NCBI GenBank assembly: GCA_964582085.1
Contig: CAZOPV010000006.1
Coordinates: 17,026-81,025, forward strand
Direction of reading: 5' to 3'
Length of the DNA stretch: 64,000 nucleotides
Source of the DNA: an uncultured Candidatus Bathyarchaeia archaeon
Lineage (GTDB): Archaea > Thermoproteota > Bathyarchaeia > Bathyarchaeales > Bathycorpusculaceae
Of this stretch, positions 17,033 through 44,959 are shown one piece after another. Positions within the stretch are counted from its first letter, which is position 1, and every line of letters begins with the position of its first letter. The position numbers and the translations under genes are program-made. A model generated the notes under the pieces. It was not told where the DNA came from and searched no databases. It saw only the letters and a list, made by a program, of their open reading frames with translations.

Positions 17033-17365
17033 TCAGTAGCGTCTCTGTTGCCGCATTACTGCTCGTGCAAGGAGCCAAATACCTACTGCAATTATGGCAA
17101 GTGGCCACCATGGAATATTTATATTATAGACCTCAGAAATCAAGAAACTAAAACCTATTATGATTATTATTACGCCCGCAATTAAAGCACCTGTACCTGC
17201 CCGTTGGCGGTGATGACGTGTTTCCATAAATCCTCTTGAGTGTTTGATGAGTATAGCACCACATTTAACGCAGACGTTTGCATCCTCAGGGTTTAATTTC
17301 CCACATTTATAACAGTAAACCATAACTTGGCCTTCTACAGTAACCCGTAGTAACGGACTGCTCAT
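17033..17365 (-). CDS. Zinc-ribbon membrane protein
   Basis: CYKCGKLNPEDANVCVKCG zinc ribbon followed by two TM helices. Confidence 0.55.
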   Translation of the reverse strand: MSSPLLRVTVEGQVMVYCYKCGKLNPEDANVCVKCGAILIKHSRGFMETRHHRQRAGTGALIAGVIIIIIGFSFLISEVYNINIPWWPLAIIAVGIWLLARAVMRQQRRY

Positions 17366-17473
17366 AAGACTTTTGGTGCAGCTTTCTTCAAATTGTTTAT
17401 TTGTGTGTCTTTCTAGCTAAAGTTTAAACTCTGCTGTTTACAATACCTACAGGCACTCAAAGAGGAACTAAAA

Positions 17474-19702
17474 ATGTCGCTTCCACAGCGTGCCCGTGGA
17501 GTTAAAGTTCTCAAAGCCGTTTCGTCTCCTATTAGGTTGCAAATTTTAAATCTCCTTTTTGATAAAGGTGCTCTTTCTTACACAGAGCTTATGAACGCCT
17601 TAAAGATGAATCCTGGTCGTGATGCTGGGAGGTTTGCATACCACTTAAAATTTCTTTTGAAGGCAAGTTTGGTGGAGGCTGATGTTGAAACAAAAAAGTA
17701 CTTACTGACGGATCTCGGCAAAATGGTTATAGATGTAGCGGATAGGGTGGAAAAAAGAGCAGTTAAATCCAAGGGTGTGCTTGTCCGTACATCGCATTTA
17801 ACTTTTGAAGAGTTTGACGCAAACAAAATCTCTAATTCGCTTATAAAAGAGGCAAAAATGCCTGTTGATTTGGCGCAGAAAATCGCCAAAGAGGCTGAAA
17901 AAATTATCCTTAAATCTAAAACTAAATATTTAACTGCACCTTTAATTCGTGAAATCGTAAACGTGCTTCTTATTGAAAAAGGTTTTGAAGATTACCGTCA
18001 CAAGTTGACAAGGCTAGGCTTGCCTGTTCATGAAGTTACCGCTTTAATTGAAGCAAAGGATAAAGAGCACTCAGACGAAATTGAGGAACTGTTGTTAACC
18101 GTTGGAAAATCAGTGCTTCGAGAATACACTCTTTTGAACGTTTTTCCCCGCGACATAGCGGATGCTCACCTAGCTGGTGTGCTTCACGTTAGCGGTCTAG
18201 GTACTTGGATTTTGAAACCCTGTGAAGTTGTTCATGACCTACGTTTCTTTCTACAAAACGGTCTGCGTGTGGATAACTATAATGTACTTTATCATTCTGA
18301 TGCTCCTGCCGAGAACTTCCAAGCTGCGCTATCAATGGTTTTTAACCTCTTGTTGTTGTGCTGCCAAGAAGTGAGTACAACTCAAACGATTGCCCACTTC
18401 AATGTGTTTCTGGCGCCTTACGTTAAGTGTTTAGACCCTGAAAAAGTGAAAGAGACTTTACGTTTGTTTATTTTGGACCTAAATAGGCATGTGAATGTTT
18501 CTTTAGTTCTTGATTTGTCAATTCCCACTACCCTCGCTGAAAAAAACGCTGTAGGCGCAAAGGGTAAGATAGTGGGTAAATATGGCGATTTTATTGATGA
18601 AAGCCAACTTTTAGTTAATCTTTTGTTTGACATTTTTTTGGAAAAAAGTCAGCTTAAACCTGTAGTAAATCCAAAAATTATCTTCAGAATCAGCCCTGAA
18701 GATCTTAAGGATGAGAAAAAGTACGCTATAATTCTTAAAGCTCACGGTGTAGCTGCAGAAAAAGGGTCCATTTACTTTGCTAGTGTCGTGCAAAGACAAA
18801 AAGGCGAAAAAACCACGGTTTTTTCTGCAAGTGGGCTTACACTTGAAGCTGATTTTACTGGTGACTGGGAAACAGATACTTTGAGAACTGGTTGCTTAGG
18901 GTATGTCGGGATTAATTTGCCCCGCATTGTTCAGGAGAGCGAAAAGGACAAAAATAGATTTCTGACTCTTCTCAAGGAGCGGTGTGAACTTGCGGAACGT
19001 GCATTAGGTATAAAGCAGCGTGCCCTTAGGCAACACGGTAAAACTATTTTGCCTTTTATGATGCAGGATACCAACGGCGATGTTTACTTTAGATTGGAAA
19101 ACTGTGCTGGCATAATAAATCTTGTGGGGTTAAAAGAAGCTGTGGAGAACTTCACCTCAAAAGGGCTTTGTGATAAAGAAAGTCTAAGCTTCGCCAAAGA
19201 AGTCGTGCATGAGAGTTTAGCTTTTGTTAATAAGACAGGGAGGAAACATGGAAAACGTCTGTTTCTCTCTATTTTGCCCAGTCCAGAAGCCTCTTTAAGG
19301 TTTGCCCGTCTTGACATTGAAAAATATGGGATTGCAAAAACCAAATTCTCCGGTGCTAGGGAGAAGCCTTTTTATTCAACTGTACATCGGTTGCAGCTCC
19401 AACCAGGTGATTTTTTGTCTGTTCCTTCTGAACAGTTAGAGGTTGAGCGAAGCTTGAGAGGGTTAAATGGAGGTGGAAATTTAACAATTATAGATGTTGA
19501 TGGAGTGGAAATTAAACCGCAAGAGTTGTTGAAGTTGACTTGCCATTTGATGGAAAATCAAAATGTGACTTTTTTAACTTACAATCGCAAAGTTACCTAT
19601 TGCGTTATCTGCCAAAAAAGCTGGTTTGGAGCGTTGCATAAATGCCCTTCATGTGGGGCTATTAGTAGCGTTGTGACTTTTGACCGGTTCAAATTTACAT
19701 AA
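17474..19702 (+). CDS. ArsR-type wHTH + ATP-cone + anaerobic RNR (NrdD)-like domain protein, probably non-catalytic
   Basis: N-terminal SSPIRLQILNLLFDKGALSYTELMNAL (ArsR HTH). ATP-cone (VRTSHLTFEEFDANKISNSLI..APLIREIVNVLLIEKG). NrdD-like core (AHLAGVLHV.., GYVGINLPRIV). C-terminal CVICQ..CPSCG zinc ribbon. The protein ends ..VVTFDRFKFT with no RVxGY glycyl-radical motif. Confidence 0.7.
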   Translation: MSLPQRARGVKVLKAVSSPIRLQILNLLFDKGALSYTELMNALKMNPGRDAGRFAYHLKFLLKASLVEADVETKKYLLTDLGKMVIDVADRVEKRAVKSKGVLVRTSHLTFEEFDANKISNSLIKEAKMPVDLAQKIAKEAEKIILKSKTKYLTAPLIREIVNVLLIEKGFEDYRHKLTRLGLPVHEVTALIEAKDKEHSDEIEELLLTVGKSVLREYTLLNVFPRDIADAHLAGVLHVSGLGTWILKPCEVVHDLRFFLQNGLRVDNYNVLYHSDAPAENFQAALSMVFNLLLLCCQEVSTTQTIAHFNVFLAPYVKCLDPEKVKETLRLFILDLNRHVNVSLVLDLSIPTTLAEKNAVGAKGKIVGKYGDFIDESQLLVNLLFDIFLEKSQLKPVVNPKIIFRISPEDLKDEKKYAIILKAHGVAAEKGSIYFASVVQRQKGEKTTVFSASGLTLEADFTGDWETDTLRTGCLGYVGINLPRIVQESEKDKNRFLTLLKERCELAERALGIKQRALRQHGKTILPFMMQDTNGDVYFRLENCAGIINLVGLKEAVENFTSKGLCDKESLSFAKEVVHESLAFVNKTGRKHGKRLFLSILPSPEASLRFARLDIEKYGIAKTKFSGAREKPFYSTVHRLQLQPGDFLSVPSEQLEVERSLRGLNGGGNLTIIDVDGVEIKPQELLKLTCHLMENQNVTFLTYNRKVTYCVICQKSWFGALHKCPSCGAISSVVTFDRFKFT

Positions 19703-19706
19703 CGGC

Positions 19707-20693
<987 letters not shown>

Positions 20694-20777
20694 TTACAAA
20701 TTTTTGTAGGTCCCATTTTTGCATAAGCTTTTTAATTTCGGCTTCTTTTAATATCTATAAATGTGGAGAGAATTTGT

Positions 20778-21011
20778 ATGCCTAGAGCCTTTGTGTTGAT
20801 AAATGTGGAGTCTGGTTCAGAAGATGATGTCTTGAGGGGGTTACGGGGTGTTGAGGGTGTTGAGGAAGCCTACTTTTCCTACGGAGTGTACGACATTATC
20901 GCTAAAATCAAGGCTAGTAGTATGGAAGAGCTCAAAGAGATGGTTACTAAAAAAGTGAGGGCGCTATCTAAAGTGCGGTCAACCCTTACTTTGATAATGA
21001 TGGAAGAGTGA
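20778..21011 (+). CDS. Stand-alone Lrp/AsnC ligand-binding (RAM) domain protein
   Basis: The 77-aa MPRAFVLINVESGSEDDVLRGLRGVEGVEEAYFSYGVYDIIAKIKA.. sequence is a RAM domain without an HTH. The ATG at 20778 is preferred over the GTG at 20763. Confidence 0.65.
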   Translation: MPRAFVLINVESGSEDDVLRGLRGVEGVEEAYFSYGVYDIIAKIKASSMEELKEMVTKKVRALSKVRSTLTLIMMEE

Positions 21012-21485: not shown

Positions 21486-22100
21486 ATGAATGCTCTAAGC
21501 AAGCTACTAAAGAACCGATACGCGTTAAGCACCGTTGTCACTACGTTAATTATACTCGTCATTTCCGTGTTACTTGCAAGTGTTGTAACTTACTTCGCCA
21601 TCAACGTCGTTAGCACTCGTGTACAGGAAGAAAGTTTGCACTTAACTAAGCAGCACATCTGGCACAATTCCACCGCCACTTCGGGTACAGTTGCTTACTC
21701 GCAGGCTTCACTGATGGTGATTAACACAGGAGGCAGAGATATAGTAATTGATAAGTTGGCTGTTCGAGGTCAAGAATGCTCTTGGAATAACTCAGATAGC
21801 TCAAACAAGCAACTTGTACTCTACTGTACAACTAACAATCCAATATCTGCAGACATGTCCTACATATATAACTTTAACATCACTGGTACTAACACAGTGA
21901 ACTTTGACGGTACAGACTACACCTTCCAAGTGGCAAACAGTGACCTAGTGTTGCAGTCAGGATACACGTTGCTGTTATACATCGTCAACCCAGACTCAAT
22001 TACAATCAACGACATTGGCTTGACCGTAAGCATAACGTTGTACACCGCCCAAGCAATGTACTACAGAGAGGCTAACGTACAAGCAGTATCAGCTACATAA
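21486..22100 (+). CDS. Archaeal type IV pilin (class III signal peptide), paralog 1
   Basis: KNRYA|LSTVVTTLIILVISVLLASVV is a prepilin-like N-terminus. A perfect GGAGGTGA SD sits at 21469-21476. The C-terminal domain is beta-rich. Confidence 0.8.
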   Translation: MNALSKLLKNRYALSTVVTTLIILVISVLLASVVTYFAINVVSTRVQEESLHLTKQHIWHNSTATSGTVAYSQASLMVINTGGRDIVIDKLAVRGQECSWNNSDSSNKQLVLYCTTNNPISADMSYIYNFNITGTNTVNFDGTDYTFQVANSDLVLQSGYTLLLYIVNPDSITINDIGLTVSITLYTAQAMYYREANVQAVSAT

Positions 22101-22104
22101 AACA

Positions 22105-22129
22105 CCTTTTTTCTTTCTTTGTTTTTTGT
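22105..22129 (+). terminator. Oligo-T tract after pilin 1
   Basis: CCTTTTTTCTTTCTTTGTTTTTTGT follows the stop. It may attenuate rather than fully terminate. Confidence 0.3.
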
Positions 22130-22209
22130 GCTCGTCTGTAATGTGTAGCTTTTTTATACGCACAAATTTACTTATCCAAAACTTGCTTATTGCTTTTTCA
22201 GTGATAAAA

Positions 22210-22764
22210 ATGAGAAATATACTGAAAAATCGATATGCTCTAAGCACGGTTGTAACTACACTGATTATCCTTGTTGTTTCAGTGCTACTCGCAGGTGTCG
22301 TCACTTACTTTGCCATCAACGTAACTAGCACACGGGTTCAAGAGGAAAGTTTGCACCTCACCAAGCAACATGTATGGTACGCAGCGAACGGTACTTCATA
22401 TTCTTCCGAAGCAGCCATCATGATTATAAACACTGGCGGACGCGACGTTGTCATTGATAAATTAACCGTTCGAGGTCAAGAAGTTGCATGGACTAACGTA
22501 TTCTACAACATCACCACAGACTCAGTATCTGCCGATCTATCTTTCAACTCTACACTGGTAGATGGTGGTTCTATAAGCGTTGGTAGCTCATACATATTTA
22601 AGCAGGCATCAACTGACCTGACGCTCGAATCAGGCAAAACCATGTTGATCTACATCGCTAGCCCAGATAGCATTACCGTCAACGACATCGGCTTGACAGT
22701 TGCCATAACGGTCTTTACATCGCAGGCAATGTACTATAAAGAAACCAACGTAGAATCAAGCTAA
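22210..22764 (+). CDS. Archaeal type IV pilin (class III signal peptide), paralog 2
   Basis: MRNILKNRYA|LSTVVTTLIILVVSVLLAGVV. The first ~55 residues are near-identical to paralog 1. The ATG at 22210 is preferred over the track start at 22126. Confidence 0.8.
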   Translation: MRNILKNRYALSTVVTTLIILVVSVLLAGVVTYFAINVTSTRVQEESLHLTKQHVWYAANGTSYSSEAAIMIINTGGRDVVIDKLTVRGQEVAWTNVFYNITTDSVSADLSFNSTLVDGGSISVGSSYIFKQASTDLTLESGKTMLIYIASPDSITVNDIGLTVAITVFTSQAMYYKETNVESS

Positions 22765-22793
22765 AAGAGCCAACCAAAAACAAAAACCCCCCA

Positions 22794-22811
22794 CTTTTCC
22801 TTTTCTTTTTA
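22794..22811 (+). terminator. Oligo-T terminator candidate after pilin 2
   Basis: CTTTTCCTTTTCTTTTTA. Confidence 0.3.
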
Positions 22812-22939
22812 TACCAAGAATTTTCGTTGATTTTAGTACCTTATTGCTTTTTGTGGCTTATCTAACTTTACTTTTAAAAGTGGCGTTTCAAGCTGAATGT
22901 CGGTGCAATATGTAGTTGGTATGACGCACAAATAGCTTA

Positions 22940-23842
22940 ATGCATTTTTCACGAACTCTTTTTATCGAAGTTAGCCACAGGGAAGCGAATGCACTGTTGT
23001 CAAGACCTCAAAATAAATGTCTATACTTAAAATCAAGTTTCTTTAAATCTAAAAAAGCGTTAGCTCTGCCCGCCACCTTTCTTATACTCTTCGTTTCTAC
23101 GCTCGGCTTAATTTCTGTTACATACTATTTTGCCGTCGAAAAGGTGAACGCTCGAAGTCAAAACCTCAAGATTTCAACGGCGAAGCAGGATTTTTTGGCT
23201 ATTGATGAAGGTGTTTTGGCTGTTGTGTGGCAACCAGGTTCTTCGCGGGCACTCGAAATTAGTGATTCAGGTGGAAAACTTTGCGTAGAGCCTACAAGCA
23301 GTGCGCTTTCAATTAGAATTTCAGACGGCAGAGACATAAACCAGACAGTTTTCAATAAAACTGTAGGGCAAGTCACATATCAACTGCCGTATTCTGAATC
23401 TCCTGAGACTGGGTTGTACCTGAAAGGTGACAGTCGCTCCGTGGCCAACCAGTCTGGCTCGTTAATTTCTCAAGTTTCCATACAAAATGGTGCTGAACAC
23501 CCTGAACTTCTTTTGCGTTATCGTCCTGCGGTGTCACATGCAGTATTAGGCATCGAGGGTGGTCGTCCAGTTAACAGTGTGCGTGTCTATGTGGTCAACA
23601 TGAATTCTTCGGAAACCATTGCTTTGCACGGCCGAGTTCCTCTGAAAATTTCTTGCTGTAGCACACGGATAACAACCACGACTTACACTGTATCCTACAG
23701 TGTTGCATCTCTGACTATAACCTCTTTTCTGGAAGAAAGTAGCGGGCAGGTCGCAATTCCAATTTCAAGTACAGAAGTCGGTGCAGTAATTAACTTTGAC
23801 ATTGTCGAGGCGGACATAAAAATTGAGAGGTGTCTGCGGTAA
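22940..23842 (+). CDS. Pilin-like protein (class III signal-like N-terminus)
   Basis: KSKKA|LALPATFLILFVSTLGLISVTYYF. The stop TAA abuts the next ATG. The true start may be the TTG at 22997. Confidence 0.65.
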   Translation: MHFSRTLFIEVSHREANALLSRPQNKCLYLKSSFFKSKKALALPATFLILFVSTLGLISVTYYFAVEKVNARSQNLKISTAKQDFLAIDEGVLAVVWQPGSSRALEISDSGGKLCVEPTSSALSIRISDGRDINQTVFNKTVGQVTYQLPYSESPETGLYLKGDSRSVANQSGSLISQVSIQNGAEHPELLLRYRPAVSHAVLGIEGGRPVNSVRVYVVNMNSSETIALHGRVPLKISCCSTRITTTTYTVSYSVASLTITSFLEESSGQVAIPISSTEVGAVINFDIVEADIKIERCLR

Positions 23843-24292
23843 ATGCCTTCTGTTATTCCGGGGTACGTTTACACTCTGTTTGCCTCAGTTATCATCGGAA
23901 CTCTTGTAATCACTACCTGTGCCTTTTCAGTTGCTGGAATAAAACATGAAGTAGAAGAACAACAGCTTTACAGTATAGCAAAGTACGTCGCGACAAAAGG
24001 TGTTGAGTTAACAAGTCAGAATCGCGCAGAAAACTTCACTGCCATTGTACATTTAGACCTCCCACCGATGATCGGAAATCAAAGATATTGGATCCAAATA
24101 TCAAATGACTCCACGAGAGCATGGGCTGAAGCAGGATTTGGGTCAACAGTAATTTCAGGTCAAAAACGTGTGGATATACCTGTTGAAGTTGCCGCATCAG
24201 GCACCTACCTAAGTGGGTCAGCTTCATCGGCTTTTCTCCAATACGCCTCTGGTGTCGATGGCGCAAGTTTAATGCTTTATGGAGGTAGCTAA
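23843..24292 (+). CDS. Small N-terminally anchored pilus-operon protein
   Basis: MPSVIPGYVYTLFASVIIGTLVITTCAF is a hydrophobic N-terminus. The gene is translationally coupled on both sides. Confidence 0.6.
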   Translation: MPSVIPGYVYTLFASVIIGTLVITTCAFSVAGIKHEVEEQQLYSIAKYVATKGVELTSQNRAENFTAIVHLDLPPMIGNQRYWIQISNDSTRAWAEAGFGSTVISGQKRVDIPVEVAASGTYLSGSASSAFLQYASGVDGASLMLYGGS

Positions 24293-32323: not shown

Positions 32324-33952
32324 TTAGGCGGAAAATTTGTGTTTTTTTCTTTGGAGGTTAAATTCTTCTCTCATTTTTATCTGACGTCTTTTTACGTTAT
32401 ATCTAACAGAGAAGTTGTGCGCTGCGTCTCGCATCTGCCGCAGTAGCAACATTATGCGGTTGTTTTTATCGACTTGTCTTGGTGTGTCCTCGTTTGGTAA
32501 GTAAATTTCCTCATGTTCCTTTGCTAATCCAATAAGTGGTAGTTGTAGTCCAAGCGATTTCAGAGCTGTTTCTGCTGCACTAACTTGTCCTGCTCCTCCG
32601 TCTATTACGACTAAGTCTGGTAGCTGTGCTTTTTCCTCTATTAGTCGTTTATATCTTCGGGTGACAACCTCGTTGATGGCTGCGAAGTCGTCTTGTTTTG
32701 TGATGGTTTTTATTTTGAATTTGCGGTAGTTGCGCTTGTCAGGTTTGGCGTTTGTGAAGCGCACCATGCCTGCAACTAGATGTTCCTGCCCCAAGTTGGA
32801 GATGTCAAAGCATTCAATAATGTGTGGGATGCTGGATAGGTTGAGAAAGTCCTGTAGATCTACGAGGGCATTGTCGTCTTCTATTGTAGTTTCAAGGTTT
32901 TTCTCTGCAAGTTGAACCAGTTCTAGTCGGTTTCCTCGTCTTGGCACTGTAAGCGTTGTTTTTGCTCCTCTTTTTTCGGAAAAAAACTGCTCTAATGCTG
33001 CTTTTTCTTCGGAGTCGTGCCAGACGGGTCTGTTTAGCAGAATTTCTCTAGGAATTGAATTCGCTTCGTAGAACGCTTTTAGAAATTCTTCTTCCACCTC
33101 TGGCTGTAAATCCATTGTGAATTCTTTTTTGCCTAAGAGAACCCCTTTACGTACACCCATGTGCACGGCTAAAACTTTTTCTCCTATTCGGCGGAAGGTG
33201 AGAACGTCTTGGTCGTACAGTCTTTCTTTGTCTACAATTTGTCGTTGTGTAAGCAAGCTGATGGAAGAAATTTGGTTACGGAGCTCCAGTGCCTCTTCGT
33301 ATTTTTGTTCATCTGCTGCCTTCTTCATAAGTTCTTGGAGTGCTATTGCGGTTTGTTCGTAGTTGCCTTTAAGAAAAGACCTTGCCTGTTCAACTTGCTT
33401 TGCGTACTGTTCCGCGGTGACTTTTCCTGTGCATGGAGCTGTGCAGATGCCTATGTGAAAATTAAGGCATGCTCGTTTGGGTAGTGTTTTGCATGTACGA
33501 AGTTTAAAGACTCTCACTACGAGTTTTTGGAGGTCTTGCCGTGTGAAGCCGTCTGTGTAGGGTCCAAATGATTCGAGTTTGCGGGAAACTTTGCGGCTGG
33601 TGAGTATCCTTGGGAATGTTTCTTTTGTAAGTGCTATGTAGGCAAATGTTTTGGCGTCTTTGAGGTCTATGTTGTAACGGGGGGTGTGTTGCTTAACTAG
33701 TTTGTTCTCTAAAAGTAGTGCTTCCACTTCGTTGTTTACGATGATCCAGTCTATGTTTCGGATTTTAGAGACTAGTTGCCGTGTTTTGGTGGGTTGGTTG
33801 CTGTTGGCAAAGTAGCTTTTGACGCGGGCGCGGAGGTTTTTAGCTTTTCCGATATAGAGTATTTCGTCTTTTTCGTCTTTGAAGATGTAGACGCCGGAGT
33901 TTGTGGGAACCTCGGAGCTTTTGAATTCTGCAGGTGAAGCTATCGCTATCAT
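32324..33952 (-). CDS. uvrC: Excinuclease ABC subunit C
   Basis: GIY-YIG motif (GVYIFKDEKDEILYIGKAKNLRARV) and a UVR domain. ATGA overlap with the uvrA stop. Confidence 0.9.
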   Translation of the reverse strand: MIAIASPAEFKSSEVPTNSGVYIFKDEKDEILYIGKAKNLRARVKSYFANSNQPTKTRQLVSKIRNIDWIIVNNEVEALLLENKLVKQHTPRYNIDLKDAKTFAYIALTKETFPRILTSRKVSRKLESFGPYTDGFTRQDLQKLVVRVFKLRTCKTLPKRACLNFHIGICTAPCTGKVTAEQYAKQVEQARSFLKGNYEQTAIALQELMKKAADEQKYEEALELRNQISSISLLTQRQIVDKERLYDQDVLTFRRIGEKVLAVHMGVRKGVLLGKKEFTMDLQPEVEEEFLKAFYEANSIPREILLNRPVWHDSEEKAALEQFFSEKRGAKTTLTVPRRGNRLELVQLAEKNLETTIEDDNALVDLQDFLNLSSIPHIIECFDISNLGQEHLVAGMVRFTNAKPDKRNYRKFKIKTITKQDDFAAINEVVTRRYKRLIEEKAQLPDLVVIDGGAGQVSAAETALKSLGLQLPLIGLAKEHEEIYLPNEDTPRQVDKNNRIMLLLRQMRDAAHNFSVRYNVKRRQIKMREEFNLQRKKHKFSA

Positions 33953-36819
33953 GCTGGATCTTTCTGGAGTATTTTTTTGAGGAACTTGCCTGTATGTGAG
34001 TTGGGGTTTTCTGCCACTTCTTCTGGGGTTCCTTGTGCTATGACTTGTCCGCCTTCTTCTCCTCCTTCGGGACCAAGGTCGATGAGGTAGTCACAGCTTT
34101 TTATTACGTCCAAGTTGTGTTCGATTACGTAGACGGTGTTGCCTTTTGCAACCAGTCTGTTGAGTACTTTTATGAGGCGTTTGGTGTCGTCAAAGTGCAG
34201 TCCGGTTGTGGGTTCATCTAGTAAGTAAACTACATGTCCCGATTTGTGTTTGCTGAGTTCGCGGGTAATTTTTATGCGTTGACTTTCTCCTCCTGAGAGC
34301 GTGGTGGAGCTTTGTCCAAGTTTAATGTAGCCTAGCCCCACGTCCAGTAGGGTTTGAAGTTTGCGTGATATCAGAGGCATGTTTTCGAAGAATTGTGCTG
34401 CTTCTTCCACTGTCATGTCTAAAATCTCTGCTATATTTTTTCCCTTGTAGAGTACGCTAAGAGTTTCTTTGTTGTATCTTTTGCCTTTGCATTCGCTGCA
34501 TTGTACGTAGATGTCGGGTAAAAAGTTCATTTCTATGCGTAATACACCATCTCCTTGGCAAGTTTCGCATCTTCCTCCTTTCACATTGAAGCTGAATCGT
34601 CCTGGGCTGTAGCCGCGGACTTTCGCTTCTTTAGTGGAGGCGAAAATTTTTCTGATTTCATCAAAAAGCTTAGTGTAGGTGGCGGGGTTGCTTCTGGGGG
34701 TTCTGCCGATTGGATCTTGGTCGATAACTATGACGTTATGTACAAAACTTGGGACATCCATTTTGTCGTATTTTCCGATTTTATCTACTCTTTCTCCATA
34801 CATCTGGCGTAGTGCAGGCATAACTGTTTGGTTCATCAGTGTGCTTTTGCCTGAACCTGAAACGCCTGTGATTCCGCATAGCACGCCAAGGGGCAGTTTT
34901 ACGTTTAGGTTTTTGAGGTTGTTCTCTTTGGCTCCGTAGACTGTAATGTAACCAGTGGGTTTTCGTCTTTCTTTTGGGACTTCAATTTTTAGCTCGCCTG
35001 AAAGATACTTGCCTGTTAAGCTTCGTTTATTTTTCATGATGTCTTGGGGAGTGCCCTCTGCGACAATGTGTCCTCCGTGGACGCCTGCGCCTGGACCCAT
35101 GTCTACGATGTAGTCTGCGTTTCGAATGGTTTCTTCGTCGTGTTCCACTACAATTAGTGTGTTGCCTAAATCGCGGAGTCTATGGAGGGTACTGATGAGT
35201 TTTGTGTTATCTCTTTGATGTAGGCCGATGCTGGGCTCGTCTAGTATGTAGAGTACACCCATGAGGTTGCTGCCTATCTGTGTGGCTAACCGGATTCGTT
35301 GGGCTTCTCCACCTGAGAGTGTGCGGGCGGCTCGGGAAAGTGACAGGTAGCCTAAGCCGACGTTTTTGAGAAAGCTGAGGCGGTCGTTTATTTCTTTGAG
35401 TACTTGTTTTGCAATAATCATTTCTTTTTCGTTCAAGTGAGCTGGGAGGTCTGCAAAGAAACTTATCGCTTGGTCGATGGAGAGGTCGGTGACGTCAATT
35501 ATGCTTTTGCCTTGAATTTTTACTGCTAGAACCACGGGTTGCAGCCTTTTGCCTTGGCAGGTGTTGCAGATTCGCGACTTCATGAATTTTTCTATTTCCT
35601 CTTTGCGCCATTCGCTTTCGGTTTGTTTGTACAGTCTCATGGTTTGTGGTATGACGCCTTCCCAACCGTTTTGCATCCACATGGTTGCACCGTTTGACCA
35701 GTTGCCACTGATGGGTTCTCTGTCGCCGTACAATAGGACTTGGAGTTGTTTATCTGTGAAGTCTTTGATAGGTGTGAAGATGTCAAAGCCGTGTTTTTTG
35801 CCAACCATAGCAAGTTGCTGCACCCGCCATGTCAAATCCATTTTGCCGTAAACTGCTAGGGCGCCGTCCATGATGGATTTGTTTTTGTCGGGGATAACTA
35901 AGTCCTCGGAGACTTCGGTAATTTCTCCCAGTCCATGGCAGGTGGGGCATGCGCCAAAGGGTGAGTTAAATGAGAACATGCGGGGTTCTAAGCTTTCAAA
36001 CACGATTTCTGGATGGTTAGGGCAGGCTCCAAAGGTGCTATAGACTGTTTCGCCTTTGAATCTTTCTAGTTCACGTTTTTTCTCTTTGTTTGTGTCTTGG
36101 GCGTTTATAACAATCATAGTGCCTTTGCCTGTTAAAAGCGCTTGTTCTACCGCTTCGGCTATGCGGCAGTGTTCTTCGTTGTCGATTTTTATGGTGTCTA
36201 TGACTGCCTCTATCCAGTGCTTTTCGTAGCGAATCAGTTTCACTTCTTCTTTGATGGAGTCTGCGTCGTAGATTTTTTGGTCCACTCTGATTTTGGTAAA
36301 ACCCTGTTTTTTGAGATCGTCAAAAACCTGTTCGTGTGTGCCTTTCATGCCTCTAATTATGGGCGCAAGAAAAATGAGCGTCTTGCCTTGTTCTGCCATG
36401 ATGAGACTGGTTATGTTTTCGGGGCTTTGGGGGCGAATAGAGTTGCCGCATTTTGGGCAGTGGTGTATGCCGATGCGTGCGTAAAGCAGCCTAAGGTAAT
36501 CGTAGATTTCCGTTACGGTGCCTACGGTGGAGCGGGGGTTTTTGCTGGTGCTTTTTTGTTCAATGGAGATGGCTGGAGATAAACCGTCAATTGAGTCGAC
36601 GTCGGGTTTATCCATGAGTCCCAGAAACTGCCTAGCGTATGCGCTTAGGCTCTCTACGTACCGTCTTTGGCCTTCAGCGTATATGGTGTCAAATGCTAAT
36701 GTGGATTTGCCTGAGCCTGACAGCCCCGTAATCACAATCAGCTTGTTTCGCGGTAGCTCCACGTCTATGTTTTTGAGATTGTGTTCTCGGGCGCCTTTAA
36801 TAGAAATCGTGTCTCGCAT
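33949..36819 (-). CDS. uvrA: Excinuclease ABC subunit A
   Basis: Two ABC modules ([18 protein letters not shown]; [16 protein letters not shown]) plus zinc-finger CxxC pairs. 956 aa. Confidence 0.95.
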
Positions 36820-36913
36820 TACTGTAACCTGTTTTGGTGTTTAACAATGGGATTTTACTTGTTTCAGCTTGATGCTTTTCTACCTTTTTGCGTTGAAAAT
36901 GTAATTCTGACGG

Positions 36914-38857
36914 TTAACTTTGGTTTTTCTCTTTTTGTGCCATGATTGCCGTCAATTCTTTGATTGTGTCTCTTAGTTCAATTGCCCTTTCAAAATCTAG
37001 TCGCTCTGCTGCTTCCCGCATTTTTGCTTCTAACTCGACCAGTTGTTTGTGAATGTCGGCTTTAGCTAAGTGCTTGACGCTTTTGATTGTGCCTTCTTTT
37101 AGGGAGACGCTCTTCACGATGGTTTTTGGTGTGATGCCGTGGAGGCGGTTGAAGTTCATTTGGAATTTGCGTCTGTACGCGGTGATTTCCATGGCGCGTT
37201 TAATTGATTGTGTTTTCACGTCGGCGTACAGTATAACTTTGCCTTTTTCGTTGCGGGCTGCTCGTCCAATTGTTTGAATTAGGCTGCGTTCATCACGTAG
37301 AAAGCCTTCTTTGTCGGCGTCTAAAATGAAGATTGTGGCAACTTCTGGTATGTCTAGACCTTCGCGGAGCAAGTTTATTCCGACGAGTATGTCGTATTCT
37401 CCTATCCGAAGTTGCCGTACGAGCTCTATGCGGTCGAGGCTATCTATGTCTGAGTGCATGTATCTGACGCGGAATCCTTCTTTGACTAAGTAGTCTGTGA
37501 GATCTTCTGCCATACGTTTTGTTAGCGTTGTAATTAGCACACGGTTGCCCTCATTGATTGTTTTTTTTGCTTCCGACATGAGGTGTTGCATCTGGTCTGT
37601 GATGGGGTGCAGTTCCACTTGAGGGTCCAAAAGTCCTGTAGGGCGGGTGATTAGCTCTACAGGTGGACCGCTTTTTTCTAGCTCGTATTCCGCGGGTGTT
37701 GCTGAAACAAACAGTGTTTTTCCCATTTTCTGCTCGAATTCTTCGAATTTTAGTGGGCGATTATCAAATGCGCTGGGGAGTCTAAAGCCGAAGTCCACTA
37801 GATTCTTTTTGCGTGAGTAGTCGCCGTTGTACATTGCGCGGGCTTGGGGTATGGTTTGGTGGCTTTCATCTATAATTAGCAGGTAGTCTTTTGGGAAGTA
37901 ATCCATTAACGTGAACGGTGGTTCACCTGGTTTGCGTCCGTCGAAATGTCTGCTGTAGTTTTCCATGCCTGAGCAGAATCCCATCTCTCGAATCATTTCT
38001 AAATCGTAGTTTGTGCGTTGTTTGAGGCGTTGCGCTTCAAGTGGTGGCAATTGTGGTAGTCTTTCTTCTAGTTCTCGTTGTATCTGTTGCAGTGCGCGTT
38101 CATGTTTTTCTTGGGGCACTACATACTGCCGCGCCGGGTACAGTGTGATCTTGTCGACGGTGTTTTTTACGTCGGCTGTGAGTGCGTTGACTTCTTTGAT
38201 TTTCTTGATTTTGCCTGAGTCAAGTTCTATTCTTAAAATATCTTTCTCGTAAGCCGGGATTACGTCTATGGTTTCTCCGCGAACGCGAAATCTGCCGGCT
38301 TCCAGAAAAGCATCGTTGCGTTCATATTGCATATCAACTAAGGTGTGAATTAGCTTTTGCCTGTTTATCTCTTTGCCTACTTCTAGTTCGACAGCCATGC
38401 TTTTGAAGTCGTCAGGGTTGCCTAAGCTGTAGATGCAGCTTATACTAGCAACTATAATTGTGTCACTTCTGCTTACGATGCTTGAGACCGCGTGCATACG
38501 CATCTTTTCGATCTCTGCGTTTACGTCTGAGTCTTTTTCTATGTAGGTGTCTGTTGTTGGAATGTAAGATTCGGGTTGATAGTAATCGTAGAAAGAGATG
38601 AAATATTCAACTCTGTTCTTGGGGAAAAACTCTTTCAACTCAGCGTAAAGCTGAGCTGCCAGCGTTTTGTTGTGTGCGATGATGAGCGTTGGTTTCTGAA
38701 GTCGGTTAATTACGTTGGCCATGACAAATGTTTTGCCGCTGCCTGTTATCCCTAGAAGTGTCTGTTTGTCTTTTTTTGAGAATCCTGCCACTATCTTTTC
38801 AACTGCTTCTTCTTGTCCAGGTGATGTTTTGAATGGTGCAATTAGTTCGAACTGCAT
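36914..38857 (-). CDS. uvrB: Excinuclease ABC subunit B
   Basis: GITGSGKTF Walker A, DESH box, helicase motifs and a C-terminal UVR domain (ERLDFERAIELRD). Confidence 0.95.
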   Translation of the reverse strand: MQFELIAPFKTSPGQEEAVEKIVAGFSKKDKQTLLGITGSGKTFVMANVINRLQKPTLIIAHNKTLAAQLYAELKEFFPKNRVEYFISFYDYYQPESYIPTTDTYIEKDSDVNAEIEKMRMHAVSSIVSRSDTIIVASISCIYSLGNPDDFKSMAVELEVGKEINRQKLIHTLVDMQYERNDAFLEAGRFRVRGETIDVIPAYEKDILRIELDSGKIKKIKEVNALTADVKNTVDKITLYPARQYVVPQEKHERALQQIQRELEERLPQLPPLEAQRLKQRTNYDLEMIREMGFCSGMENYSRHFDGRKPGEPPFTLMDYFPKDYLLIIDESHQTIPQARAMYNGDYSRKKNLVDFGFRLPSAFDNRPLKFEEFEQKMGKTLFVSATPAEYELEKSGPPVELITRPTGLLDPQVELHPITDQMQHLMSEAKKTINEGNRVLITTLTKRMAEDLTDYLVKEGFRVRYMHSDIDSLDRIELVRQLRIGEYDILVGINLLREGLDIPEVATIFILDADKEGFLRDERSLIQTIGRAARNEKGKVILYADVKTQSIKRAMEITAYRRKFQMNFNRLHGITPKTIVKSVSLKEGTIKSVKHLAKADIHKQLVELEAKMREAAERLDFERAIELRDTIKELTAIMAQKEKNQS

Positions 38858-39083
38858 TTTCGTCTCTCGTGAACTCGCTAGCAGGAGGGGTTTTGGTTTA
38901 TAAGAGTTTTTAATAGGTCTTTTGTGTTTGTTGGTGTTTTATTTTGTTGTGTGATTAATTGTGGGTTTATGATTGTGGTTTTTTCTTTGGGCGTTTTGTG
39001 TGTTGTTGTAGTGGTGTAGTACAAAAAATGAATAAGGTTTATTAATACTTACGATAAATGTTGATGTGGATGTGGGGGAAACT

Positions 39084-40022
39084 ATGGCGCAGCCAATGGT
39101 CGATTCGGCGTTGCCTTTAGCCGTGACTAAGTTGAAGAAAATGGGAATCCAAAAAGGCGGCAAACCTCTTTTAGGAGGCGAGGCAACCTATAGAAAATTG
39201 TTCAACACCTTTGCTGAGCCGGTTTTTATTGCTGATTATGAGACTGGAGTAATTCTTGACTGTAACACGGCTTCTTTTGAGTTGACGTCTTTTTCGAAAG
39301 CAGAGTTGGTTGGCGTGAAAATAAATTCTTTGTTTTATAGTGCGCCTGAAAAGATTGCCGCGGCGTCTGTTGAGCAGTTTCTGGGGTGTACTGAAGGGCA
39401 AGTTGTTAATGCGACGCTGATCACAAAGGGGGGTGTCAAAAAGGAGGTTGCGGTTCGGTTTGATACTTTAATGTTTAACCGGCGGAAAATTGTGCGTTTG
39501 ATGTTTTGGGATGTCACGGAGAAAAAGCGACTTGAGGAATTATTGGTCAAAGTGGTTTACAAATTAAGTGGGCTCTCGCCTGGTGACAGTGTGATTTATG
39601 GTTCTCATGAGCGGTGTTTTAATGTCTATGAGAGTCTTGTATGTATCAGCTTGCCCTCTTTGTGTATTGTTCATGGTGATCCGCAGAAGTTAATAGATAT
39701 GTATGATGTTCCTGTGGAGTCCGTTAGATTGTTGGCTTCTAAATCTATTAAGGGGTTTAGTGTTTTGCCTAATCTACAGGAGCTTTCTCTTGAGTTATCT
39801 AGGTTTTTGAATACCTATAAGAGGGGGGTTATTCTTCTTGATGGTTTGGAGCGTTTAATTAGTACTTATGGTTTTGAGGCGGTATATCAGTTTATTCAAG
39901 AGAAGCATTTTGATTTGTTGGAGCATGATTCTTTTTTGCTTATGCCTATGAATTTAGATGCGCTCAGTAAAGTGGAAAAGGCATATTTGGCAAGTGAAGT
40001 TAAAATTATTGAGGGAAACTAG
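39084..40022 (+). CDS. Cytoplasmic PAS sensor with C-terminal DUF835 domain
   Basis: PAS (YRKLFNTFAEPVFIADYETGVILDCNTAS..WDVTEKKRLEE). The C-terminus LCIVHGDPQKLIDMYDV..VILLDGLERLISTYGFEAVYQFIQEKHFDLL matches the DUF835 pattern. ATG 39084 follows a GGGGGA SD-like run. Confidence 0.75.
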   Translation: MAQPMVDSALPLAVTKLKKMGIQKGGKPLLGGEATYRKLFNTFAEPVFIADYETGVILDCNTASFELTSFSKAELVGVKINSLFYSAPEKIAAASVEQFLGCTEGQVVNATLITKGGVKKEVAVRFDTLMFNRRKIVRLMFWDVTEKKRLEELLVKVVYKLSGLSPGDSVIYGSHERCFNVYESLVCISLPSLCIVHGDPQKLIDMYDVPVESVRLLASKSIKGFSVLPNLQELSLELSRFLNTYKRGVILLDGLERLISTYGFEAVYQFIQEKHFDLLEHDSFLLMPMNLDALSKVEKAYLASEVKIIEGN

Positions 40023-40163
40023 GGGGCGGGTTCTTCAGGGGTGCGAGGTAATTAGTTTTTTGTTGTGGTTTGTTTTTTTGGTGTAAGTGTTTAATTTAGA
40101 GGTTGTGTTCGACAAAAAATTAATTATGTTAGACGTCGCTTATCTGTTATCGCTGGTTGTTTG

Positions 40164-41654: not shown

Positions 41655-41716
41655 TTATGTTTCAGTTATCCTTCGCTGTGGGTTGGTTTACTTGGTTTCT
41701 GGTGGGGTGTTGAATA

Positions 41717-42643: not shown

Positions 42644-42646
42644 AGT

Positions 42647-43477: not shown

Positions 43478-43538
43478 ATTTTGAAGAAGTTTTTTTGGTT
43501 TACTCTTCTTTGGTTTGTGAAAAGAGTGAGAGGGTGTT

Positions 43539-44651: not shown

Positions 44652-44739
44652 AGGGGTGTTCCTGTTTTGTTTTTGGTTGTATGTGTATTTACGTTTTGGC
44701 GTTTATTAGCCTGTTGTCTGTGTTTCTTTTGGATTGGTT

Positions 44740-44955
44740 TTATGCAGTTTTTATGTATGAATAGTTACCTCTAAAGTCGCCAAGCCTGATCCGATAAGAA
44801 TCTGTTAATCCTTTCAGTTTCTTTATGTCGTAATATTCTGCTGGGACAGGGTTTTCACGTAAGATCAAAAGGGACTCAAAAATTCTCCGTTTAATATGTT
44901 CAGGTAACTTCTTGGAACTTATTTGGGCTTGTTTTGCAATGATAATGTTGAACAA
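44740..44955 (-). pseudogene. RelE/ParE-family toxin remnant (C-terminally truncated)
   Basis: ..LRENPVPAEYYDIKKLKGLTDSYRIRLGDFR.. matches the RelE/ParE core. The ORF stops about 20 aa earlier than typical family members. Confidence 0.55.
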
Positions 44956-44959
44956 TAGG

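What the first reader, a model, noticed from the sequence alone, without database searches (positions are those of the whole stretch)
17474..19702. HTH + ATP-cone + NrdD-like protein that seems to lack the glycyl-radical and thiyl-radical sites, placed between pyrG and pyrB
Seen in sequence:
- An ArsR-type wHTH.
- An ATP-cone.
- A class III RNR-like core with recognisable blocks (AHLAGVLHV.., FLAPYV, GYVGINLPRIV).
- A C-terminal CxxC..CxxC zinc ribbon.
- The protein ends ..SSVVTFDRFKFT* where NrdD enzymes carry the R-V/T-x-G-Y glycyl-radical motif.
- I find no Cys in the stretch ~30-40 residues before the INLPR block, where I remember the catalytic MGC motif to be (here ..FSASGLTLEAD..).
- The HxHD-like block reads HVSGLG.
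- No nrdG activase gene is nearby.

Established knowledge: the ATP-cone senses ATP/dATP in RNRs and in the repressor NrdR.

Inference: this may be an RNR-derived pseudoenzyme repurposed as a nucleotide-sensing transcription factor. That would be an archaeal functional analogue of NrdR with a much larger sensor. Its position between CTP synthase and aspartate carbamoyltransferase fits nucleotide-pool control.
Basis: partly seen in the sequence, partly recalled or inferred. Interest (0 to 1): 0.65.

Follow-up and report, generated by a model that had tools for sequence, protein, structure and literature searches.

The report
Dead RNR turned archaeal regulator
This archaeal gene encodes a copy of the anaerobic ribonucleotide reductase that has lost every catalytic site, gained a DNA-binding domain, and in related archaea sits right next to working reductase genes, so it is most likely an undescribed nucleotide-sensing switch for DNA-precursor synthesis.

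Summary
The ORF at 17474-19702 (+) encodes a 742-aa protein with a winged HTH, an ATP-cone, a class III RNR (NrdD) barrel and a Zn ribbon. Profile and structure comparisons show that every catalytic element is gone: the NxN flap, the second half of HxHD, the bottom Cys (now Glu251), the finger-loop thiyl Cys, and the glycyl-radical domain (the protein ends one residue after the Gly position). It is not a pseudogene: dN/dS is 0.05-0.06 in the HTH and cone and 0.17 in the barrel.

It belongs to a large, apparently undescribed archaeal family (Bathyarchaeia, Nitrososphaerales, Asgard; at least 587 GTDB species genomes). None of 84 HTH-bearing cluster representatives keeps all three catalytic motifs.

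In relatives the gene lies directly upstream of a working RNR: B12-dependent class II in Nitrososphaerales (5/5 contexts), or glutaredoxin plus intact NrdD elsewhere (19/37). Convergent pyrB and pyrI follow.

In the query's clade the RNR slot is empty and pyrB abuts the gene (76/80 loci). pyrG adjacency is coincidental (1/80).

Best reading: a nucleotide-sensing transcription factor for RNR, possibly also pyrBI, analogous to NrdR. DNA binding, ligand and targets are inferred, not shown.

The parts
17474..19702 (+). Complete ORF, 742 aa: wHTH + ATP-cone + catalytically dead NrdD barrel + Zn ribbon
   Evidence: AF2 model pLDDT 86.6. Foldseek top hits are all NrdD structures.
17507..17734 (+). 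Winged helix-turn-helix (ArsR-like / DUF7347), residues 12-87. The putative recognition-helix motif DAGRFAYHL lies at 17621-17647.
   Evidence: Pfam HTH_5 26.6 bits (cutoff 22), DUF7347 32.2 (cutoff 27.6). G52, Y56 and H57 are invariant across 44 sequences at 26-80% identity. dN/dS 0.064.
17783..17998 (+). ATP-cone, residues 104-175, a divergent 'VRTS' variant of the canonical KRDG start
   Evidence: Pfam ATP-cone 31.4 bits, cutoff 25.8. V104, R105, F114, I119, L123, E126, P130, E142, L153 and L157-R159 are invariant. dN/dS 0.048. The same VRTS variant occurs in three of six neighbouring or related intact NrdDs.
17999..18076 (+). Cone-to-barrel linker, residues 176-201. The LTRLGLPV block is kept; the NxN flap (ENANLQ.NPET in active NrdDs) is absent.
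   Evidence: The flap's role is described in PMC11226230. pLDDT is low here.
18077..19588 (+). NrdD-type alpha/beta barrel, residues 202-705, with degenerate active site: HVSG (18185-18196) for HxHD, Glu251 (18224-18226) for the bottom Cys, finger loop TVFSASGLTLE (18815-18847) without Cys, Cys474 (18893-18895) at the T4 Asn311 position. NLPR (18914-18925) is retained.
   Evidence: TIGR02487 scores 223.8 bits, below the 326 cutoff. dN/dS 0.17.
19601..19654 (+). NrdD-type Zn ribbon CxxC-x10-CxxC (Cys710, 713, 724, 727)
   Evidence: Invariant in 121/121 close relatives and 44/44 distant relatives.
19655..19702 (+). Truncated remnant of the glycyl-radical domain: ..FDRFKFT*. Phe741 sits at the radical-Gly position and the stop codon follows one residue later.
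   Evidence: Position 741 is S73/A15/G14/F7 in the clade.
17421..17452 (+). Own promoter region: palindromic AGTTTAAACT (contains TTTAAAC, 17423-17429) and the downstream element AATACCTACAG (17442-17452). This is a candidate TATA box and operator. The SD-like GAGG is at 17462-17465.
   Evidence: TTTAAAC lies 40-60 nt upstream of the start in 55/75 clade promoters against 33/896 other genes, and in 32/75 against 9/519 in other lineages. The composite is found in 32/76 regulator promoters, 0/69 pyrB and 0/1081 other genes. Coordinates.
19707..20645 (-). pyrB (aspartate carbamoyltransferase catalytic chain), convergent, 4 bp from the stop codon. It is the only conserved neighbour.
   Evidence: TIGR00670 scores 392 bits, cutoff 237. 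Present in 77/80 loci, 76 of them tail-to-tail. Cluster analysis.

Best explanation
The gene encodes a non-catalytic descendant of the class III ribonucleotide reductase catalytic subunit (NrdD). It most likely arose by duplication of nrdD and fusion to an N-terminal winged HTH, and it now acts as a ligand-controlled transcription factor.

Shown from sequence and structure prediction: the NrdD fold, the Zn ribbon and an ATP-cone are kept. The radical chain (Gly, thiyl Cys, bottom Cys) and the substrate-handling motifs (HxHD, NxN flap) are all lost. Purifying selection is strongest on the HTH and the ATP-cone.

Inferred:
(i) The HTH binds an operator at or near promoters, including the gene's own unusually conserved TTTAAAC-containing promoter.
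(ii) The ATP-cone reports the ATP/dATP or (d)NTP state by changing conformation or oligomeric state, as it does in NrdD and NrdR. The former allosteric and nucleotide sites of the dead barrel may also contribute.
(iii) The regulon is centred on the cell's working RNR. The basis is that relatives sit immediately upstream of nrdJ or grx-nrdD.
(iv) The regulon may extend to pyrBI.

In the organism of this window the RNR gene has left the cluster. The regulator would then act in trans on an RNR encoded elsewhere, and its tight convergent pairing with pyrB is what remains of an older regulator-RNR-pyrB-pyrI cluster.
For: Architecture and fold.

Catalytic decay, motif by motif, against intact archaeal NrdDs and solved structures. 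The query fails the NrdD equivalog cutoff (224 vs 326 bits), while NrdDs next to its relatives pass at 522-553.

Family-wide pattern: 84 HTH-bearing 50%-identity cluster representatives, none with all three catalytic motifs, forming one clade in an NJ tree. Intact NrdDs nearby carry a second ATP-cone, never an HTH.

Selection: dN/dS is 0.064 (HTH), 0.048 (cone) and 0.17 (barrel), with no in-frame stops in six orthologues. Invariant columns cluster in the HTH, cone, linker and Zn ribbon.

Synteny with working RNRs: Nitrososphaerales 5/5 distinct contexts, with nrdJ (TIGR02504 550-767 bits) next and co-directional. One P0130-type locus has an intact NrdD next. In metagenome loci, 19/37 have an intact NrdD directly downstream, 11 of them with a glutaredoxin in between.

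Occurrence in Nitrososphaerales and Tara ocean samples, where an O2-sensitive glycyl-radical RNR is implausible.

A gene-specific conserved promoter is compatible with autoregulation.

NrdR is rare in archaea (PMC9110341). ATP-cone signalling in NrdD runs through the flap and the glycyl-radical domain (PMC11226230).
Against: There is no direct evidence for DNA binding, nucleotide binding or any target gene.

The ATP-cone is weak and divergent (KRDG becomes VRTS; 31 bits here, and flagged 'weak' or 'faint' in several relatives). In NrdD the cone signals through the flap and the glycyl-radical domain, both of which are missing here, so the coupling mechanism would have to differ.

In the query's own clade no RNR lies within 10 kb in 80 loci. 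The RNR link is therefore by homology to other lineages.

No motif is shared between the regulator promoter and the pyrB, pyrI or NrdD upstream regions. Thaumarchaeal promoters lack TTTAAAC, and TTTAAAC could simply be an unusual TATA box.

The loci are phylogenetically related, so the counts overstate independence. 18 of 37 metagenome loci have no RNR downstream.
Confidence: 0.6

Rival explanations
1. It is a transcription factor whose main target is pyrimidine synthesis (pyrB/pyrI) rather than RNR, sensing nucleotides to tune ATCase expression.
For: pyrB is the single conserved neighbour in the query clade: 76/80 loci tail-to-tail, and 51/53 loci with enough flank. pyrB/pyrI also lie close to the gene in Nitrososphaerales (4 of 5 distinct contexts), in P0130-type Bathyarchaeia (3/3) and in 19/37 metagenome loci. 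The linkage has survived extensive gene-order scrambling.
Against: The orientation is convergent, not divergent or operonic. The regulator's promoter elements are essentially absent from pyrB promoters (composite 0/69; TTTAAAC 3/71 and 0/24), which carry a different conserved block. Where an RNR gene is present it, not pyrB, is the co-directional downstream gene.
Confidence: 0.2
2. It is a non-DNA-binding regulatory pseudo-subunit. It would heterodimerise with, or otherwise bind, the active RNR (or ATCase) and modulate the enzyme directly, with the HTH serving protein-protein contacts.
For: It is a paralogue of NrdD, which works as a dimer. It often sits directly upstream of an intact NrdD, and the barrel is still under purifying selection at dN/dS 0.17. 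The C-terminal Zn ribbon is invariant.
Against: In Nitrososphaerales the adjacent RNR is class II, not NrdD, so heterodimerisation through the NrdD interface is unlikely. The most conserved segment of the whole family is the putative HTH recognition-helix motif DAG[KR]F.YHL. That pattern is typical of a DNA-reading surface.
Confidence: 0.1
3. It is still an enzyme: an unconventional reductase or other radical or redox enzyme using different residues, for example the clade-conserved Cys474, Cys504 and Cys544.
For: Cys474 and Cys544 are 97.5% conserved in the close clade. NLPR, RLxxLD, YY/FY and the GG loop are partly kept.
Against: Every element of the NrdD radical path and the substrate-triphosphate motif is missing. 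Those Cys residues are not conserved in the other HTH-bearing groups. There is no activase in the window. The family is present in Nitrososphaerales and Tara ocean samples, a largely aerobic lineage (own knowledge), and sits next to a bona fide RNR. The query fails the curated NrdD cutoff.
Confidence: 0.03
4. It is a decaying pseudogene or an annotation artefact of no function.
For: Loss of the catalytic residues and a truncated C-terminus.
Against: Intact ORFs of constant length occur in hundreds of genomes. dN/dS is 0.05-0.18 in all domains, and the truncation point is the same (..FDRFxxT*) across the clade.
Confidence: 0.01

Closest known systems
NrdR (bacterial RNR repressor: Zn ribbon + ATP-cone)
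   Same: It contains an ATP-cone joined to a DNA-binding module, and relatives are genomically tied to RNR genes. The proposed logic is the same: nucleotide state read by the cone controls transcription of RNR genes and probably of the regulator itself. NrdR is rare in archaea (PMC9110341), so the niche is open.
   Different: The DNA-binding domain is a winged HTH, not an N-terminal Zn ribbon. The protein is about five times larger because it carries a whole dead RNR barrel. There is no sequence relationship outside the cone. No NrdR-box-like paired palindromes were identified. The function is untested.
NrdD, class III (anaerobic) ribonucleotide reductase catalytic subunit
   Same: Clear homologue. 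Pfam NRDD E 1e-58; Foldseek TM 0.72-0.74 (normalised to target) against T4 and T. maritima NrdD. It has the same ATP-cone-linker-barrel-Zn-ribbon order, and shares VRTS (with some), LTRLG.PV, ADAH.SG and NLPR motifs with neighbouring intact archaeal NrdDs.
   Different: It lacks the glycyl-radical domain and Gly, the thiyl Cys, the bottom Cys, the second His/Asp of HxHD and the NxN flap. It is below the TIGR02487 cutoff, carries an extra N-terminal HTH, and occurs in Nitrososphaerales and Tara ocean samples.
Bacillus subtilis PurR-type regulators (winged-helix DNA-binding domain fused to a catalytically inactive phosphoribosyltransferase domain that senses PRPP); also PyrR and other enzyme-derived regulators. 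This comparison rests on my own knowledge and was not tested here.
   Same: The same design principle: a nucleotide-metabolism enzyme fold that lost catalysis serves as the ligand sensor of a wHTH transcription factor controlling the same pathway.
   Different: Unrelated folds and ligands. Here the sensor is a roughly 540-residue radical-enzyme barrel plus an ATP-cone.
ArsR/SmtB family metalloregulators
   Same: The N-terminal domain matches HTH_5 above the Pfam cutoff, and several databases name the protein 'ArsR family transcriptional regulator'.
   Different: It is below the NCBIfam HTH_metalloreg cutoff (30 vs 55 bits). It is not a small stand-alone dimeric metal sensor. The best N-terminal match is to the archaeal DUF7347 wHTH.

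Membership tests
Class III RNR catalytic subunit (NrdD) | NrdD-type 10-stranded alpha/beta barrel fold and Pfam NRDD match | tested here: met
   PF13597 E 9.8e-59. Profile vs PDB NrdDs E 1e-32 to 1e-42. AF2 model and Foldseek give TMt 0.72-0.74.
Class III RNR catalytic subunit (NrdD) | C-terminal glycyl-radical motif R-[IV]-x-G-[YFW] within an intact glycyl-radical domain | tested here: not met
   The protein ends ..DRFKFT*. Phe741 aligns to the Gly, and the column is S/A/G/F in the clade. About 25 C-terminal residues of the domain are absent.
Class III RNR catalytic subunit (NrdD) | Thiyl-radical Cys at the tip of the finger loop (MGC / CC motif) | tested here: not met
   Finger loop 448-458 is TVFSASGLTLE with no Cys. 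Three alignment methods place the Cys on S453, G454 or L455. Column 455 is C/I/V/L, i.e. not selected for Cys.
Class III RNR catalytic subunit (NrdD) | Bottom-face Cys (T4 Cys79) and the substrate-triphosphate HxHD motif | tested here: not met
   Glu251 (E in 120/121) replaces the Cys. HxHD reads HVSG. The role of the motif is described in PMC11226230.
Class III RNR catalytic subunit (NrdD) | Score above the curated equivalog cutoff (NCBIfam TIGR02487) | tested here: not met
   223.8 bits vs cutoff 326.35. Intact NrdDs next to relatives score 522-553.
Class III RNR catalytic subunit (NrdD) | C-terminal four-Cys Zn ribbon | tested here: met
   Cys710, 713, 724 and 727 are invariant.
Class III RNR catalytic subunit (NrdD) | Partner radical-SAM activase NrdG in the genome | tested here: inconclusive
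   No CxxxCxxC ORF in the 64-kb window and none recurrent in related loci. The rest of the genome could not be searched.
NrdR | [quoted passage not shown] | tested here: not met
   The N-terminus is a wHTH. The Zn ribbon is C-terminal and of NrdD type. The protein is 742 aa, and no NrdR model appears among the NCBIfam hits.
NrdR | ATP-cone that binds ATP/dATP | tested here: inconclusive
   The domain is detected above the Pfam cutoff (31.4 vs 25.8) and is under the strongest purifying selection. However, it is a KRDG-to-VRTS variant, and binding cannot be tested in silico here.
NrdR | Binds paired NrdR boxes at RNR promoters; genomic association with nrd genes | tested here: inconclusive
   Association with RNR genes holds in relatives but not in this window. 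No NrdR-box-like motif was found, and binding is not testable with these tools.
ArsR/SmtB metalloregulators | ArsR-type wHTH above curated cutoffs; small dimeric metal sensor | tested here: not met
   Pfam HTH_5 26.6 exceeds 22, but NCBIfam HTH_metalloreg 30.1 is below 55. The protein is 742 aa and multidomain.

The most novel reading that the evidence does not exclude
This would be the ancestral archaeal (TACK plus Asgard) solution to controlling DNA-precursor supply. A whole RNR subunit is converted into a transcription factor that keeps two nucleotide-reading devices: the ATP-cone for ATP/dATP, and the former specificity and substrate sites of the dead barrel for dNTP balance. It couples them through an HTH to transcription of whichever RNR class the cell uses, and of pyrBI. 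That makes it a single protein integrating overall dNTP level, dNTP balance and pyrimidine synthesis, with no known counterpart.
Probability: 0.25. Interest if true: 0.9.

Novelty: new variant of a known kind. Interest (0 to 1): 0.75.

Why it matters
How archaea control RNR transcription is largely unknown, and NrdR, the bacterial answer, is rare in them. This family gives a concrete, testable candidate present in major uncultured and cultured lineages: Bathyarchaeia, ammonia-oxidising Nitrososphaerales, and Asgard relatives.

It is also a clean case of a radical enzyme becoming a pseudoenzyme sensor. Intermediate states are visible, because some relatives keep full-length glycyl-radical-like tails, with or without the Gly.

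There is a practical point as well. Many database entries name these proteins 'anaerobic ribonucleoside-triphosphate reductase (formate)', so metabolic reconstructions of Nitrososphaerales and of Bathyarchaeia may wrongly credit them with a class III RNR.

Tried and rejected
1. Shared operator between the regulator and pyrB. The conserved promoter elements of the regulator (TTTAAAC; AATA[CG][CG]TA[CG]AG) are essentially absent from pyrB promoters, which have their own block AAAGTGTTATTTAGCAGTT. Rejected as evidence for direct pyrB control.

2. A motif common to all lineages. Thaumarchaeal regulator promoters have TAAAATAC[CT]TT instead of TTTAAAC. The regulator-to-grx/nrdD intergenic region has TATACA-N6-TATACA. 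No single operator could be defined.

3. Decaying pseudogene. Rejected by dN/dS and length conservation.

4. Search for an activase by the CxxxCxxC motif in the window and in 170 loci. Nothing recurrent was found.

5. Search for an RNR near the gene in the query clade using tblastn with nrdJ and intact nrdD. None was found in 80 loci or the window.

6. Technical missteps, corrected. The first downstream analysis merged the tandem intact NrdD into the anchor (fixed). The first tree labelling used too strict an HTH regex (fixed with an HTH HMM). My first Cys regexes missed the 'FCQDWDLR / QCC' NrdD subclass (resolved by reading the sequences).

7. Finger-loop register. The register differs by 1-2 residues between phmmer, MAFFT and the profile search (S453, G454 or L455). 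The conclusion does not depend on it.

8. Literature. Nine full-text searches and two targeted reads found no description of an HTH-fused or catalytically dead NrdD. Subscription-only papers were not searchable.
Full report
**1. What is there**

The ORF at 17474-19702 (+) is real and encodes 742 aa. Pfam finds four parts. An N-terminal winged HTH matches HTH_5 at 26.6 bits and DUF7347 at 32.2, over residues 12-87. An ATP-cone follows (31.4 bits, cutoff 25.8). Then comes an NRDD domain at residues 202-732 (E 9.8e-59). The protein ends with a CxxC-x10-CxxC ribbon.

The curated NrdD equivalog TIGR02487 scores 223.8 bits, below its cutoff of 326. An AlphaFold2 model built on a 44-sequence alignment is confident (pLDDT 86.6, pTM 0.75). 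It has a low-confidence hinge between the HTH and the cone. Its best structural matches are exclusively class III RNRs, with TM 0.72-0.74 (normalised to target) against T4 and T. maritima NrdD. Class I R1 and PFL-like enzymes score far lower.

**2. Catalytic sites**

I compared the protein with solved NrdDs by single sequence and by family profile. I also compared it with intact archaeal NrdDs recovered during this work. T4 numbering was checked by counting in the alignment.

- The thiyl-Cys motif ('pmGCR', 'QCC', 'MGC') falls on the finger loop TVFSASGLTLE (448-458), which the model shows as a beta-hairpin. It contains no Cys. Three alignment methods place the Cys on S453, G454 or L455. Column 455 is C52/I32/V24/L9 in 121 close relatives, which is hydrophobic exchange rather than selection for Cys.
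- The bottom Cys (T4 Cys79; 'P.C..HDLR' in intact archaeal NrdDs) aligns with Glu251, which is Glu in 120/121. The query's Cys250 is incidental, because that column is Asn or Ser in 110/121.
- HxHD, which binds the substrate triphosphate (PMC11226230), reads HVSG.
- The NxN flap (ENANLQ.NPET in intact archaeal NrdDs) is absent from the linker.
- The glycyl-radical motif SR[IV]TGY aligns with FDRFKFT*. Phe741 is at the Gly position (S73/A15/G14/F7 in the clade), and the stop follows one residue later.

The pyrB stop lies 4 bp beyond, so there is no room for a missed C-terminal extension.

**3. Not a pseudogene**

Against six orthologues there are no in-frame stops. Against the closest one (L001), dN/dS is 0.064 in the HTH, 0.048 in the ATP-cone and linker, 0.17 in the barrel and 0.18 in the ribbon and tail.

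Across 44 HTH-bearing sequences at 26-80% identity to the query, the invariant columns cluster in four places: the HTH (R21, L28, G52, Y56, H57, Y76, G82), the cone and linker (V104, R105, F114, I119, L123, E126, P130, E142, L153, L157-R159, R175, R180, G182, P184), and the four Zn Cys. The barrel contributes few. Selection has moved from catalysis to the DNA-binding and nucleotide-binding modules.

**4. The family**

The 120 best database hits (63-96% identity) all share the architecture, are 725-783 aa long (nearly all 734-742), and end at ..F-D-R-F-x-x-T*. An exhaustive search of 1.84 billion cluster representatives gives 1743 relatives at E <= 1e-3 and 319 at E <= 1e-30.

Among 105 full-length representatives, 84 carry the HTH (scored with an HTH HMM), and none of them has all three catalytic motifs. 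Six intact NrdDs in the set carry a second ATP-cone or nothing at the N-terminus, never an HTH. In a neighbour-joining tree of the cone and barrel rooted on the intact NrdDs, the HTH-bearing proteins form one clade, with one HTH-less leaf inside it. This is only a distance tree.

The tails show a decay series. Some are roughly 42-aa glycyl-radical-like tails that keep a Gly (RISGM, RVNGM). Some are the same length with Ala, Ser or Thr at that position. Others are truncations of 11-27 aa.

On taxonomy, the 80 best of at least 587 GTDB species genomes are almost all labelled Bathyarchaeota or Bathyarchaeia. More distant groups come from Thorarchaeota, Atabeyarchaeum (Asgard), Brockarchaeota, Nitrososphaerales/Thaumarchaeota and 'Ca. 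Methylarchaceae', and include Tara ocean samples. Sources name them 'ArsR family transcriptional regulator', 'helix-turn-helix domain-containing protein' or, very often, 'anaerobic ribonucleoside-triphosphate reductase (formate)'.

**5. Genomic context: the main new evidence**

In the query's clade, only one neighbour is conserved. pyrB lies tail-to-tail, typically 7-30 bp away, in 76 of 80 loci. One further locus (L054) has it on the other side, and the three misses are contig ends. pyrG and the small Zn-ribbon membrane protein are adjacent only in the closest relative. The next most frequent neighbour cluster occurs in 27 loci. The window's pyrB is a bona fide ATCase (TIGR00670, 392 bits against a cutoff of 237).

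In other lineages the picture widens. In Nitrososphaerales, five of five distinct contexts show the gene directly upstream of, and co-directional with, a B12-dependent class II RNR (TIGR02504, 550-767 bits against a cutoff of 400). In four of the five, convergent pyrB and then pyrI follow. B12-synthesis or transport genes, or thymidylate synthase, lie on the other side in three of the five.

In P0130-type Bathyarchaeia, one locus has an intact NrdD in that slot. It is 712 aa, carries CQGHDLR, SQCCR and SRITGYYQ, and scores 553 bits on TIGR02487. Two other loci have an empty slot. All three have pyrB and pyrI.

Among 37 metagenome loci with enough downstream sequence, 19 have an intact NrdD directly downstream. 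Eleven of these have a roughly 100-aa glutaredoxin (PF00462) in between, and 13 have pyrB beyond.

In the query clade the figure is 0 of 53, and no RNR of either class lies within 10 kb or anywhere in the window.

The simplest history is an old cluster of regulator, RNR (class II or III, interchangeable), convergent pyrB and pyrI. The query's lineage then lost or moved the RNR gene. That would explain why a convergent pair is so stubbornly conserved.

**6. Cis elements**

The gene's own promoter is unusually conserved. In the window, the palindrome AGTTTAAACT lies at 17421-17430. The element AATACCTACAG follows at 17442-17452, then an SD-like GAGG.

TTTAAAC lies 40-60 nt upstream of the start in 55/75 clade regulators, against 33/896 other genes in the same loci. 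In the other non-thaumarchaeal lineages the figures are 32/75 against 9/519. It is essentially absent upstream of pyrB, pyrI and the NrdD ORFs. The composite with the second element occurs in 32/76 regulator promoters, 0/69 pyrB promoters and 0/1081 other genes.

This is compatible with autoregulation at a TATA-overlapping site, or with an unusual TATA box. Relatedness of the loci inflates the statistics.

The regulator-to-grx/nrdD intergenic region carries a different recurrent element, TATACA-N6-TATACA. Thaumarchaeal regulator promoters carry TAAAATAC[CT]TT. I could not define one operator shared by regulator and targets.

**7. Mechanism**

Shown: a dead NrdD barrel with a retained Zn ribbon; a strongly constrained wHTH and ATP-cone; and a conserved position next to working RNR genes in relatives.

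Inferred: the HTH reads DNA, and the cone reports nucleotide state, possibly together with former nucleotide sites of the barrel. Some of the barrel's conserved motifs survive (ADAH.SG, NLPR, RLxxLD, YY and the GG loop). Output would be transcription of RNR, possibly of pyrBI, and probably of the gene itself.

In true NrdD, ATP or dATP at the cone shifts a dimer-tetramer equilibrium and orders or disorders the flap and the glycyl-radical domain (PMC11226230). NrdR uses cone-driven oligomerisation to gate DNA binding (PMC9110341). Since the flap and the glycyl-radical domain are gone here, an oligomerisation-type switch seems the more plausible of the two.

A caveat: the cone is a KRDG-to-VRTS variant. 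Three of six neighbouring or related intact NrdDs share it, so it is not obviously defunct, but binding is untested.

**8. Comparison and novelty**

Functionally the closest known system is NrdR. By membership the protein is neither NrdR (no N-terminal Zn ribbon) nor a functional NrdD (five defining features fail) nor a typical ArsR/SmtB sensor.

The design resembles B. subtilis PurR, a winged helix plus an inactive PRTase sensor (my own knowledge, not tested here).

Nine full-text searches and targeted reads of an RNR phylogeny paper and a 2026 glycyl-radical-enzyme review found no description of this family. Subscription-only literature was not covered.

I rate it a new variant of a known kind: an ATP-cone-based regulator of nucleotide supply, with an unprecedented sensor module.

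**9. Verdict**

The pseudoenzyme status is near certain (about 0.95). A transcription-factor role is likely (about 0.8). RNR as the main target is plausible (about 0.6) and rests on synteny in other lineages. The pyrG adjacency is coincidental. Interest 0.75.

Noticed in passing
window 17421-17452: The gene's promoter has a perfect 10-bp palindrome AGTTTAAACT, followed 11 nt later by AATACCTACAG. In sister lineages the core flips to AATAGGTAGAG (TACCTA becomes TAGGTA) at the same position. The composite is specific to this gene's promoters.
   Followed up: partly
L116, L133, L144, L153, L164 (intergenic between the regulator-like gene and grx/nrdD): A recurrent TATACAGAATTTTATACA element (TATACA-N6-TATACA) lies upstream of the glutaredoxin-NrdD genes. 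It is a candidate RNR-operon promoter or operator, and it differs from the regulator's own TTTAAAC box.
   Followed up: partly
P0198, P0199, P0186, P0213, P0232, P0240, P0248, P0249, P0262, P0266 (representative proteins): A second set of NrdD-like proteins has no HTH, and also lacks the finger-loop Cys and/or the Gly-radical tail. Their N-terminal extensions align like those of the double-ATP-cone NrdDs (two cones confirmed by Pfam only for P0198). One cluster comes from 'archaeon BMS3Abin16' and Euryarchaeota MAGs. They could be further non-catalytic NrdD derivatives, or divergent enzymes that my motif patterns missed.
   Followed up: partly
window 19707-21011 and loci L001-L090: pyrB is uncoupled from pyrI. 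pyrI is divergent from pyrB in 8 of the 11 query-clade loci where the ORF clustering found it, and is not found anywhere in the 64-kb window. In the window, the gene divergent from pyrB is an 82-aa stand-alone Lrp/AsnC ligand-binding domain (20763-21011), which recurs in 7 related loci.
   Followed up: partly
window about 20646-20700 (- strand) and the pyrB upstream regions of L002-L057: The pyrB promoter carries its own strongly conserved block, AAAGTGTTATTTAGCAGTT...CTTTCTTGT..GGTG, across the clade. It is unrelated to the regulator's promoter elements.
   Followed up: no
Database names of P0012-P0120 and P0310-P0427: Many members, including those from Nitrososphaerales and Tara ocean samples, are annotated 'anaerobic ribonucleoside-triphosphate reductase (formate)'. 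This looks like systematic misannotation that could mislead metabolic reconstructions.
   Followed up: partly
window 39066-48603: By inspection of the translated sequences only, this looks like an archaeal type IV pilus or archaellum-like assembly locus: a secretion-type ATPase (40161-41654), two polytopic membrane proteins (41717-43477), KaiC/RecA-like ATPases (45897-46817, 47887-48603) and a pilin-like protein (47002-47550). It coincides with extreme GC skew (+0.42) and AT skew (-0.43). No tandem repeats were found.
   Followed up: partly
window 21486-24292: Tandem paralogous proteins (204 and 212 aa, then 300 and 149 aa) have N-terminal hydrophobic segments like archaeal class III (pilin-type) signal peptides.
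   Followed up: no
window 32324-38857 (-): A bacterial-type nucleotide-excision-repair cluster, uvrC-uvrA-uvrB, in what appears to be a Bathyarchaeial genome.
   Followed up: no
P0176, P0179, P0189, P0193, P0204, P0206, P0222, P0243 and others: Intact NrdD representatives of 1100-1700 aa match the query in 2-5 separate stretches and keep the RITGY motif. They are probably intein-containing NrdDs.
   Followed up: no
window 17033-17365 (-): A 110-aa Zn-ribbon plus LiaF-TM-like membrane protein is transcribed divergently from the regulator and lies upstream of pyrG. It is conserved only in the closest relative (L001).
   Followed up: partly
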